Shown in pieces: positions 13,704-14,709 of a stretch of 64,000 nucleotides of DNA (the first letter of the stretch is position 1; the number at the start of each line of letters is the position of its first letter). The notes beneath the pieces were generated by a model. It did not search any database. It was not told where the DNA came from and saw only the letters and a list, made by a program, of their open reading frames with translations. The position numbers and the translations under genes were made by a program. Location: assembly GCA_034670305.1 (NCBI GenBank), contig JAXMNT010000015.1, positions 84,417 through 148,416 on the forward strand, read 5' to 3'. Source of the DNA: Deltaproteobacteria bacterium (GTDB lineage: Bacteria; Myxococcota_A; Polyangia; Polyangiales; Houyiibacteriaceae).

Positions 13704-13992
13704 GACAGCGACAGAGACAGAGACAGAGACAGAGACAGAGACAGAGACAGAGACAGAGACAGAGACAGCGACAGACACAGCGACAGCGACAGAGACAGCG
13801 ACAGCGACAGACACAGCGACAGCGACAGACACAGCGACAGCGACAGACACAGCGACAGCGACAGCGACAGACACAGCGACAGACACAGCGACAGCGACAG
13901 CGACAGCGACAGCGACAGCGACAGACACAGCGACAGCGACAGCGACAGACACAGCGACAGCGACAGACACAGCGACAGCGACAGCGACAGCG
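13704..13992. repeat. Hexanucleotide tandem array (GACAGA then GACAGC/GACACA, with 18-nt higher-order units)
   Basis: Directly visible; lies 3' of the four-helix-bundle gene. Confidence 0.97.
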
Positions 13993-14025
13993 CGGCCGGC
14001 GCCCCGAGGGACGCCGGCCTCAATC

Positions 14026-14340
14026 TCAGCGGCTGAGCTTGTAGAGCATCGCGCACACGTGGTCGCACTGGTCGAGGAGCGCCTCGTCCACCTCCACGTA
14101 CCCGAAGACCTCGGCCAGCTGCATCGCAGCCTTCAGCTCGCTGCACTCGCCGTACGCAATCGAGAACTTGTCGTGACAACGAAGCCCTCGCGCCTGCCGA
14201 GCCTCCGCGATGTTGAGGACCACGCCCTGCGCCGCCCGCTGCATCTGAGAAGCGAGCGAAGCGTCGTGCTTGCGAACGCTCGGCAGCACCTGAGCGCGCA
14301 GCGAACGCACGAGTTCAAAAGAAGTTTGTAGAACGATCAT
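14026..14340 (-). CDS. Four-helix-bundle protein (23S rRNA intervening-sequence protein/Avd-like family), 104 aa
   Basis: [19 protein letters not shown]...[23 protein letters not shown]...MLYKL matches the family pattern Q..RA..S..NIAEG...F..A.GS..E. Confidence 0.85.
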
Positions 14341-14395
14341 CGGAGACCCCTGTGTGAACACGACCGAGCGACATGCCCGGCGGCCGCAGGCCGCC

Positions 14396-14481
14396 GTCGT
14401 CTGGCGGGTCAGGGGTCAAGGGCGAAGCGGCGCGCAGGCGCCGGGCCGAAGGCACCCTTGAGGCCTGGCACGCCAGACGAC
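14396..14481. repeat. Nested palindromic element upstream of the four-helix-bundle gene
   Basis: GTCGTCTGGCG/CGCCAGACGAC outer arms; TCAAGGG/CCCTTGA inner arms; GCGAAGC and GCCGAAGGC mini-hairpins. Confidence 0.8.
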
Positions 14482-14595
14482 ACGCTTGATCACCCGCCGG
14501 GCACAACCCCACCCCCAATGGGCTCTCGAATCCGACTCCGAAGGAGCGGATGAGGCCGACTCCGAAGGAGAGGCTACAGCCCGGAGCGAAAGGAA

Positions 14596-14709
14596 GCGGA
14601 GGCGGGAGCGGGAGCGGGAGCGGGAAGCGGTAGCGGTAGCGGTAGCGGTAGCGGGAGCGGTAGCGGTAACGGAAGCGGAAGCGGAAGCGGTAGCGGTAGC
14701 GGAAGCGGA
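14596..14709. repeat. Hexanucleotide tandem array (GCGGGA/GCGGTA/GCGGAA)
   Basis: Directly visible just after the L,D-transpeptidase stop. Confidence 0.95.

What the first reader, a model, noticed from the sequence alone, without database searches (positions are those of the whole stretch)
13704..14709. Four-helix-bundle (IVP/Avd-like) gene embedded in hexamer arrays and hairpins: a candidate unrecognised repeat-associated element
Seen: on the minus strand the order is (TTCCGC/TACCGC)n array, nested palindrome (14396-14481), intact 104-aa four-helix-bundle ORF, GC hairpin (13994-14019), then about 290 bp of (GCTGTC/TCTGTC)n. All four four-helix-bundle copies or remnants in the window (14.0, 38.7, 47.3, 62.2 kb) lie within about 45 bp of a hexamer array at their 3' end. 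Known: this family includes proteins encoded in 23S rRNA intervening sequences and is related to DGR Avd, a nucleic-acid-binding partner of reverse transcriptase; free-standing members have no established function that I know of. Inference: gene plus arrays form a dispersed, decaying selfish or regulatory unit in which the protein binds, seeds or travels with the repeats.
Basis: partly seen in the sequence, partly recalled or inferred. Interest (0 to 1): 0.82.

Follow-up and report, generated by a model that had tools for sequence, protein, structure and literature searches.

The report
Repeat-flanked mobile four-helix-bundle gene cassette
A small gene of unknown function sits in a compact, multi-copy package (six-base repeats, a foldable leader, the gene, a hairpin, more repeats) that comes and goes between related bacteria, and its leader looks like a promoter that switches on only when the DNA is single-stranded.

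Summary
The 104-aa ORF (PF05635/TIGR02436; Xcc0516/Avd fold) is one of 37 copies in three subfamilies of one cassette: hexamer array, ~130-nt branched leader, gene, GC hairpin, array. 36 of 37 copies touch an array, against 24% of control genes. In same-order relatives 22 of 28 loci do, against 7 of 1193 random windows. The genes are not decaying (33 of 37 intact, dN/dS 0.05-0.13). In another genus of the family, 5 of 5 tested cassette loci were filled in only one genome. The leader's mismatches and GNA loops favour folding of the gene's template strand, the 3' hairpin's favour the sense strand. The template strand carries -35/-10-like words facing away from the gene (30 of 34 leaders): Frpo-type geometry. 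Some relatives show a sigma54-like version. Against: one relative lacks the -7 T; no expression data; no mobilising enzyme found; the window's 47.3 and 62.2 kb copies belong to a separate IS-derived MITE; most of this genome's 1214 arrays have no gene. The scan noted this cassette before, here and in other phyla; my paper searches found no description.

The parts
13364..13633 (+). rpsO (ribosomal protein S15), left neighbour; not part of the cassette
   Evidence: PF00312 130 bits; followed by pnp in 6 of 9 relatives, by an array or the gene in 0 of 9
13665..13698 (+). hairpin plus T run behind rpsO (terminator-like); the cassette begins just beyond it
   Evidence: sequence; function inferred
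13704..13992 (-). downstream hexamer array (GCTGTC/TCTGTC/GTCTGT units)
   Evidence: TRF 48.2 copies, score 382
13994..14019 (-). 3' GC hairpin; its non-Watson-Crick pairs favour folding of the sense strand (RNA)
   Evidence: present in 33 of 37 copies; non-WC pairs on the sense strand G.T 20, C.T 1, A.C 0
14026..14340 (-). four-helix-bundle gene, subfamily A, 104 aa
   Evidence: TIGR02436 56.7 bits, cut-off 24; PF05635 54.2 bits, cut-off 33.8; AF2 pLDDT 97.9; Foldseek 2GSC TM 0.83, 2RLD 0.87, Avd 4DWL 0.73
14341..14374 (-). short 5' untranslated stretch with a purine-rich, ribosome-binding-site-like word at 14347-14352
   Evidence: sequence; function inferred
14375..14502 (+). conserved branched leader: closing stem (14375-14383 with 14493-14502), long stem 14396-14481, apical mini-hairpins with C-GNA-G loops on the + strand, which is the gene's template strand
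   Evidence: no Rfam family reaches its gathering score
14458..14463 (+). -35-like word TTGAGG, facing away from the gene in duplex DNA
   Evidence: promoter function inferred
14481..14486 (+). -10-like word CACGCT, 17 nt behind the -35-like word, at the end of the long stem
   Evidence: promoter function inferred
14503..14601 (+). linker with two small GAA-loop hairpins (14536, 14560), shared by subfamilies A and B
   Evidence: the motif lies near arrays in 62 of 86 genome-wide occurrences
14602..14708 (-). upstream hexamer array (TTCCGC/TACCGC units)
   Evidence: TRF 17.7 copies, score 135
14717..15271 (-). L,D-transpeptidase (YkuD) gene, right neighbour, convergent with rpsO; not part of the cassette
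   Evidence: PF03734 77 bits
38611..38976 (-). second subfamily A copy, 5'-truncated (leader and first 22 codons gone), with hairpin and array
47241..47790 (-). subfamily D four-helix-bundle remnant inside an IS-derived element with inverted ends; a separate element type
61990..62273 (+). internally deleted copy of the same D element with only the last codons of the gene

Best explanation
A non-autonomous, selfish or commensal gene cassette that encodes no enzyme, only a small Avd-like nucleic-acid-binding protein. SHOWN: one architecture in 37 copies, selection on the protein, expansion within this lineage, presence/absence at orthologous sites in relatives, opposite strand bias of the two hairpins. 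INFERRED: the leader is a single-strand promoter. When the gene's template strand is single-stranded (incoming DNA, a cDNA, an excised strand, or an extruded cruciform), it folds back. The away-facing -35/-10 arm then becomes the non-template strand of a pre-opened promoter whose template runs into the gene. The protein is thus made just when the cassette is in transit, acts mostly on its own copy (hence selection on every copy), and helps the strand survive or anneal. The same-orientation arrays serve as low-specificity arms for integration and for loop-out. Loop-out leaves gene-less arrays, preferentially in gaps between convergent genes. The protein's activity and the integration step are the least supported parts.
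For: Copies. dN/dS 0.094 (A, 8 genes), 0.132 (B, 13), 0.051 (C, 12) at dS 0.45-0.62. A+B+C form one clade (support 0.84), and G012 has its own clades of 16 and 8. Empty sites: 5 of 5 cassette loci tested in genus g3 are filled in one genome only, with stop-to-stop junctions and no array in some others. Of 7 gene-less G002 arrays, 3 are absent and 4 shorter in gene-less G061. Leader: template strand folds lower in 32 of 34 copies as DNA, 26 of 34 as RNA. Its perfect 3-nt loops read C-GNA-G on that strand with all four N (30/21/3/2). Stem mismatches there are G.G 53: C.C 4, A.G 33: C.T 7, G.T 58: A.C 12, while the 3' hairpin has G.T 20: A.C 0 on the sense strand. 17 stem pairs have two or more Watson-Crick types within subfamilies. 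-35/-10-like words with 16-18 nt spacing face away from the gene in 30 of 34 leaders; the duplex ends at -12 in 12 of 14 B and 8 of 11 C leaders. In relatives 20 of 59 leaders carry an away-facing sigma70- or sigma54-like match against 2 of 59 gene-facing, background 3.8% and 5.2%. The sigma54-like type pairs a consensus away-facing arm with a broken gene-facing arm (9 of 68 rows, 0 of 5892 control genes), with an in-frame ATG at +2 to +4 in 8 of 11 rows. Relatives often carry two convergent genes, each with its own leader, so either strand would express one.
Against: No expression or binding data. In G012 the -35-like word and spacing are kept but the -7 T is not: 2 of 22 leaders match, one of them far from the stem. 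The automated -12 end test failed for subfamily A (0 of 8), G013 (0 of 4) and was noisy for G012; in A the predicted fold pairs part of the -10 word. The sigma54 pattern was drawn from the loci it was counted on, the sigma70 pattern partly so, and copies share ancestry, so counts overstate. In genus g3 the array units are the same words as the -24-like motif and its partner, so these words may be protein-binding or repeat-seed sites. Genus g3 leaders are plain hairpins without either promoter pattern, yet those cassettes are the polymorphic ones. No empty site was found for this genome's own copies. Array load did not track gene number significantly across 16 relatives (rho 0.43, p 0.10). No close relative was found on plasmids or phages.
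Confidence: 0.45

Rival explanations
1. Retro route. The cassette is transcribed, the Avd-like pentamer binds the RNA and recruits a host reverse transcriptase in trans; the cDNA integrates, and the arrays are products of template slippage or repeat addition. The leader is either an RNA element or a structure of the cDNA.
For: Fold shared with Avd, which binds DGR RNA and RT (bioRxiv 2023.10.23.563531, passages). A sense-folding 3' hairpin plus an antisense-folding leader fits an RNA then cDNA life cycle. An RVT_1 match occurs in 18 of 22 genomes with the gene and 1 of 9 without.
Against: No RT next to any copy examined. This genome has three RTs; the two scanned are retron type XIII. G015 (10 copies, 99% complete) and G026 (9 copies, 92%) have no RT match, and G007 has 12 RTs and 1 copy.
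Confidence: 0.2
2. Passenger of a DDE insertion-sequence system: the cassette is a MITE-like unit moved by a transposase in trans, and the protein is cargo or a helper.
For: Subfamily D lies inside an element with inverted ends flanked by CTAG, 155/121 ends. One g3 insertion sits in overlapping stop codons with TAG-C on both sides (locus 2).
Against: A, B and C copies show no terminal inverted repeats; their arrays are variable in length and unit and mostly in direct orientation. No full-length D element with an intact transposase was found among 36 paired ends. The short duplication may simply be forced by the need for two stop codons.
Confidence: 0.14
3. The away-facing words are an ordinary duplex promoter that transcribes the upstream array or restores expression of neighbours; the hairpin has another role, such as a protein-binding cruciform or an mRNA leader for autoregulation.
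For: The words would face outwards in duplex DNA. The sense strand also folds well (z -5.1 as DNA; z -2.6 as RNA with flanks). Eight of 34 leaders fold at least as low as sense RNA.
Against: It does not explain why the promoter arm is paired with a mirror arm whose gene-facing copy is broken, why the ATG sits at the mirrored +1 in the sigma54-like type, or the strand bias of mismatches and loops.
Confidence: 0.13
4. An ordinary host gene family amplified by duplication; arrays are neutral slippage products that collect in wide convergent gaps, and the link is incidental.
For: 1214 arrays, 148 kb, in this genome. 337 of 799 intergenic arrays lie in convergent gaps, which are 438 of 2675 gaps of 100 bp or more. 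Copies are old (median 87% DNA identity).
Against: In relatives arrays are rare (0-4 per 100 kb; G012 0 in 100 kb), yet 20 of 22 G012 genes have one upstream. Gene and arrays appear together at sites that are empty in congeners.
Confidence: 0.08

Closest known systems
TIGR02436 / PF05635 four-helix-bundle (23S_rRNA_IVP, 'S23p') proteins; structures 2GSC (Xcc0516) and 2RLD (BT_0352)
   Same: Protein is a member by curated cut-offs and by fold.
   Different: The family has no described DNA element outside rRNA in the papers I could search; here it is part of a repeated cassette.
ORF-bearing 23S rRNA intervening sequences (Coxiella burnetii IVS, PMC4990558, abstract and outline seen)
   Same: Same protein family; small selfish insert with strong secondary structure.
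   Different: Not in rRNA; tens of copies at unrelated loci; ORF under purifying selection rather than reductive evolution; arms are tandem arrays, mostly in direct orientation, so no enclosing stem for RNase III.
Frpo / ssi single-strand promoters of plasmid leading regions (PMC9849209; bioRxiv 2023.02.15.528439; passages seen)
   Same: A long imperfect hairpin on the template strand carrying -35/-10-like words upstream of a gene.
   Different: Chromosomal and multi-copy, no oriT or leading region; shorter and branched; a sigma54-like counterpart in relatives; activity untested; sequence homology to Frpo not tested.
DGR accessory protein Avd (4DWL, 8UB7)
   Same: Fold (TM 0.72-0.75, E 0.08-0.35); a gene followed by a GC hairpin.
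   Different: No RT, template repeat or variable repeat with the cassette.
REP/REPIN elements with RAYT transposases; MITEs (features recalled)
   Same: Dispersed, non-autonomous, palindromic, intergenic, GNA-loop hairpins.
   Different: Carries a selected ORF; no RAYT needed (none found in G002 or G012); no terminal inverted repeats in A-C.

Membership tests
TIGR02436 / PF05635 four-helix-bundle protein | score above the curated cut-off over most of the model | tested here: met
   56.7 vs 24 bits, positions 2-105 of 109; 54.2 vs 33.8 bits
TIGR02436 / PF05635 four-helix-bundle protein | four-helix fold like 2GSC/2RLD | tested here: met
TIGR02436 / PF05635 four-helix-bundle protein | pentamer | not tested
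   inferred from 2GSC (five chains) and Avd; no complex job run
rRNA intervening sequence | located inside a 23S or 16S rRNA gene | tested here: not met
   neighbours are rpsO and a YkuD gene; no rRNA match in 13200-14800
rRNA intervening sequence | ORF enclosed by complementary arms that RNase III can cut | tested here: not met
   flanking arrays here are different units in the same polarity, not inverted copies
Diversity-generating retroelement | RT gene and template/variable repeat pair with the Avd-like gene | tested here: not met
   3 RTs in the genome, none beside a copy; the two scanned are retron XIII
Frpo-type single-strand promoter | stem-loop on the template strand of the downstream gene | tested here: met
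Frpo-type single-strand promoter | -35 and -10 words reconstituted on the arm facing away from the gene | tested here: inconclusive
   30 of 34 leaders here; 9 of 59 in relatives; -7 T missing in G012; -12 end test mixed
Frpo-type single-strand promoter | transcription from ssDNA but not from duplex DNA | not testable with these tools
   needs in vitro transcription
Frpo-type single-strand promoter | lies in the leading region of a conjugative element | tested here: not met
   dispersed chromosomal loci beside housekeeping genes; no plasmid match
REPIN / RAYT system | depends on a RAYT (Y1) transposase in the genome | tested here: not met
   PF01797 not found in G002 (16 copies) or the single-contig G012 (32 copies)
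MITE | terminal inverted repeats and target duplication | tested here: not met
   absent from A-C flanks as read by eye; met only by the separate D element
Mobile element (general) | presence/absence at orthologous sites | tested here: met
   5 of 5 loci in genus g3; not shown for this genome's own copies

The most novel reading that the evidence does not exclude
A new class of enzyme-free mobile element. It senses its own single-stranded state through a fold-back promoter (sigma70-type in some lineages, sigma54-type in others), makes an Avd-like ring protein at that moment, and spreads through short tandem repeats that it brings along or helps to lay down. This would explain both the function of the free-standing four-helix-bundle family and the origin of many intergenic 6-8-base arrays in bacteria.
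Probability: 0.3. Interest if true: 0.92.

Novelty: categorically new. Interest (0 to 1): 0.74.

Why it matters
PF05635/TIGR02436 is a widespread family with solved structures and, in the papers I could search, no function outside DGRs. A defined cassette with empty sites, selection on the protein and a specific, cheap prediction (transcription from the folded template strand only) makes the question directly testable. Single-strand promoters are described from plasmid leading regions; chromosomal multi-copy examples, and a sigma54-like form, would be new. It also ties short intergenic tandem arrays, 1.9% of this genome, to a candidate cause. The label 'categorically new' rests on failed membership tests for IVS, DGR, REPIN and MITE and on limited paper searches; the mechanism is inferred.

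Tried and rejected
Rfam: no match at gathering score in 13200-14800. RAYT as obligatory partner: rejected. DGR: rejected; the two RTs scanned are retron XIII, the third was not scanned. Sequencing runs: no RNA holder listed, no evidence either way. Laying four runs on 13200-15300 gave no contig bridging the locus; contigs break at the arrays. A metagenome pattern search for the end of rpsO found nothing. Searches for close protein relatives in GTDB contigs, viral contigs and plasmids were empty (low sensitivity; the alignment query was too diverse). Array density against gene number: rho 0.43, p 0.10 over 16 relatives with about 100 kb sampled each; rho 0.54, p 0.025 only when this genome is added; kin are not independent. 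A genus-specific array pattern gave 679, 12, 31, 10 and 0 windows in genomes with 16, 7, 1, 0 and 0 genes, not monotonic. Strand preference on fixed 213-nt windows of relatives was uninformative (25 of 59). A full-length transposase inside the D element was not found. Paper searches returned no description of the cassette; the library lacks most subscription journals, and I opened no supplements. No complex prediction was run.

Full report
OBSERVATION. The unit fills the gap between two convergent genes, rpsO and an L,D-transpeptidase gene, and begins just behind the rpsO terminator-like hairpin. The protein passes the cut-offs of TIGR02436 and PF05635. It matches Xcc0516 by sequence (E 5.9e-6). 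Its model (pLDDT 97.9) superposes on 2GSC, 2RLD and, more weakly, Avd (TM 0.73, E 0.19). PMC10053308 (passages) states the PF05635-Avd link. That the genome is a myxobacterium is my inference from its genes and comes from no name.

COPIES. The genome has 50 TIGR02436 matches at E 0.01. An iterated profile gave 39 domains; dropping one distant D hit and one half of a split copy leaves 37 loci in subfamilies A (9), B (14) and C (14). They form one clade (0.84) apart from the expansions of other genomes (119 proteins, midpoint-rooted FastTree). 33 of 37 are full length and open, with dN/dS 0.094, 0.132 and 0.051 at dS 0.45-0.62 (Nei-Gojobori). They are old and selected, not decaying. Subfamily D (11 further matches, mostly broken) sits in an element with inverted ends and fixed short arrays: 155 left and 121 right ends, 36 paired, 35 of them 182-670 bp. 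It contains what I read by eye as the C-terminal end of an IS5-type transposase (label recalled, not scanned). The window's 47.3 and 62.2 kb copies are of this kind.

ARRAYS. My detector finds 1214 degenerate hexamer arrays (148 kb); other periods are nearly absent. With a home-made gene caller as control, 19 of 37 copies have an array within 100 bp of the 3' end (14.4% of 5865 genes; 29% of 2270 genes with wide gaps) and 25 of 37 within 350 bp of the 5' end (9.2%). A looser test gives 36 of 37 on either side against 24.1%. Arrays favour convergent gaps (337 of 799; such gaps are 438 of 2675). The link is cleaner in relatives, where arrays are rare: 0-4 per 100 kb in 16 genomes. There 22 of 28 same-order loci have one within 450 bp, against 7 of 1193 random windows (several loci per genome). 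In G012, 20 of 22 genes have one upstream (20 regions chosen from its 30-32 matches). Among 27 phylum-level loci 13 have a 6-8-base array. The unit differs by genome.

MOBILITY. No same-genus genome was in the sample, so I tested genus g3 of the same family, whose cassette is array, hairpin, two convergent genes, hairpin, array. Five loci were tested: four from G002, one from G072. Each was filled in one genome only. Flank gaps were 1171 vs 28 bp, 1013 vs 134, 1159 vs 13, 1328 vs 165 (G002 vs G061) and 1023 vs 67 (G072 vs G018). Some empty sites are stop-to-stop with no array, others keep a few units or the cassette's end word, so both gain and loss occur. Of 7 gene-less G002 arrays (of 10 seen in 56 kb), 3 are absent and 4 shorter in G061, which has no gene match. 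For this locus, 0 of 9 relatives have an array or the gene behind rpsO, and 6 have pnp there. Internal deletions that join the leader to the 3' hairpin exist (C18, C22, C54), as does a tandem pair (C46). Apical leader modules are shared across subfamilies, which points to recombination among copies.

THE LEADER. Upstream of 34 of the 37 genes lies a 125-155-nt branched fold (two carry inserts, one was cut short by my extraction). Compensatory change is seen in 7 of 49, 2 of 44 and 8 of 59 pairs in A, B and C. It is almost always tied to the gene, and Rfam has no match. Three signs favour the gene's template strand as the folding strand: energy (32 of 34 as DNA, 26 of 34 as RNA), loops that read C-GNA-G with all four N (that such loops are very stable in DNA is recalled), and mismatches G.G 53: C.C 4, A.G 33: C.T 7, G.T 58: A.C 12 (the aligner favoured G.T, and copies share ancestry). 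The 3' hairpin is an internal control with the opposite bias (G.T 20, A.C 0 on the sense strand).

An earlier scan note (e1-7342102) suggested Frpo-like geometry, and I tested it. On the template strand a -35-like word, 16 (B), 17 (A) or 18 (C) bases and a -10-like word occur in 30 of 34 leaders. They face away from the gene in duplex DNA but towards it once the strand folds back. The duplex ends at -12 in 12 of 14 B and 8 of 11 C leaders, the fork-junction form on which RNA polymerase binding is assayed (PMC3753650, passages). It did not in A (0 of 8) or G013 (0 of 4) by the same automated test. In relatives (68 leaders, 9 too short and dropped, one locus counted twice) 9 of 59 have an away-facing sigma70-like and 11 of 59 a sigma54-like match, against 0 and 2 gene-facing, with backgrounds of 1.3-3.2%. 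The sigma54-like hairpins pair a consensus away-facing arm with a gene-facing arm broken at the GG: 9 of 68 rows (8 distinct leaders, 5 genomes), 0 of 5892 control genes. An in-frame ATG lies at +2 to +4 in 8 of 11 rows with that arm (consensus recalled, pattern fitted on these loci). Frpo folds as ssDNA to rebuild -35/-10 boxes and is silenced on conversion to duplex (PMC9849209 and bioRxiv 2023.02.15.528439, passages). Against this reading: G012 lacks the -7 T, g3 leaders are plain hairpins, and g3 array units equal the -24-like words.

PARTNERS. RAYT genes are present here (11) but were not found in G002 or G012. RTs co-occur (18 of 22 genomes with the gene, 1 of 9 without), but two gene-rich genomes lack a match, and genome size confounds the count. 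A retro route therefore stays open as the main rival.

VERDICT. The cassette is real, selected and polymorphic (about 0.85). The single-strand-promoter reading is about even (0.5). The full mechanism, with protein-assisted spread through the arrays, is 0.3-0.45. It fails the defining tests of IVS (PMC4990558, abstract and outline), DGR (bioRxiv 2023.10.23.563531, passages), REPIN and MITE. Searches found no description; PMC5524665 (passages) only lists the gene. The scan noted the cassette before, on other pieces of this genome and in other phyla; those notes are leads, not support.

Noticed in passing
window 7892-13633: The usual rpsO-pnp operon is broken: pnp lies 3 kb upstream on the opposite strand with a large repeat-rich secreted-type gene between. 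In 6 of 9 relatives pnp follows rpsO. One breakpoint would be at the cassette site.
   Followed up: partly
window 47241-47790 and 61990-62273; genome-wide: High-copy IS-derived element (155 left, 121 right ends) with CTAG flanks, fixed GCCCTT-type arrays, a transposase remnant and a captured, decaying four-helix-bundle gene.
   Followed up: partly
window 41568-41852 and 42432-42584: One of 11 RAYT-like Y1 transposase genes with long inverted flanks; nearby a perfect 75-bp tandem duplicate of a palindromic repeat that also inserts into D elements and leaders elsewhere in the genome.
   Followed up: no
window 2119-2339, 5016-5137, 19104-19422, 37138-37355: Gene-less composite hexamer arrays; units vary mostly at one or two positions, and several end in the small CTTCGGA hairpin motif that also precedes cassette leaders.
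   Followed up: partly
L011, L014, L028, L030, L013, L016, L037: In many relatives the cassette holds two convergent, diverged four-helix-bundle genes, each with its own leader.
   Followed up: partly
L011/L029 and L052: Array units equal promoter-like words: TGGCAC/TGTCAC in genus g3, TTGACG/TTGACC in G136. Possibly arrays of sigma-factor or protein binding sites.
   Followed up: no
L228:8537-8666 vs L229: A 130-bp gene-less array is cleanly absent in G061 and starts from a 5-base match to the repeat unit, as if seeded at a microhomology; direction of change not polarised.
   Followed up: partly
L002:900-1290: A retron XIII RT gene is followed directly by a long composite hexamer array.
   Followed up: no
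L070 (G072:C4:452341-453052): At a site filled by the cassette in G002, G072 has a different 710-bp insert: a duplicated palindromic element between hexamer arrays, without the gene.
   Followed up: no
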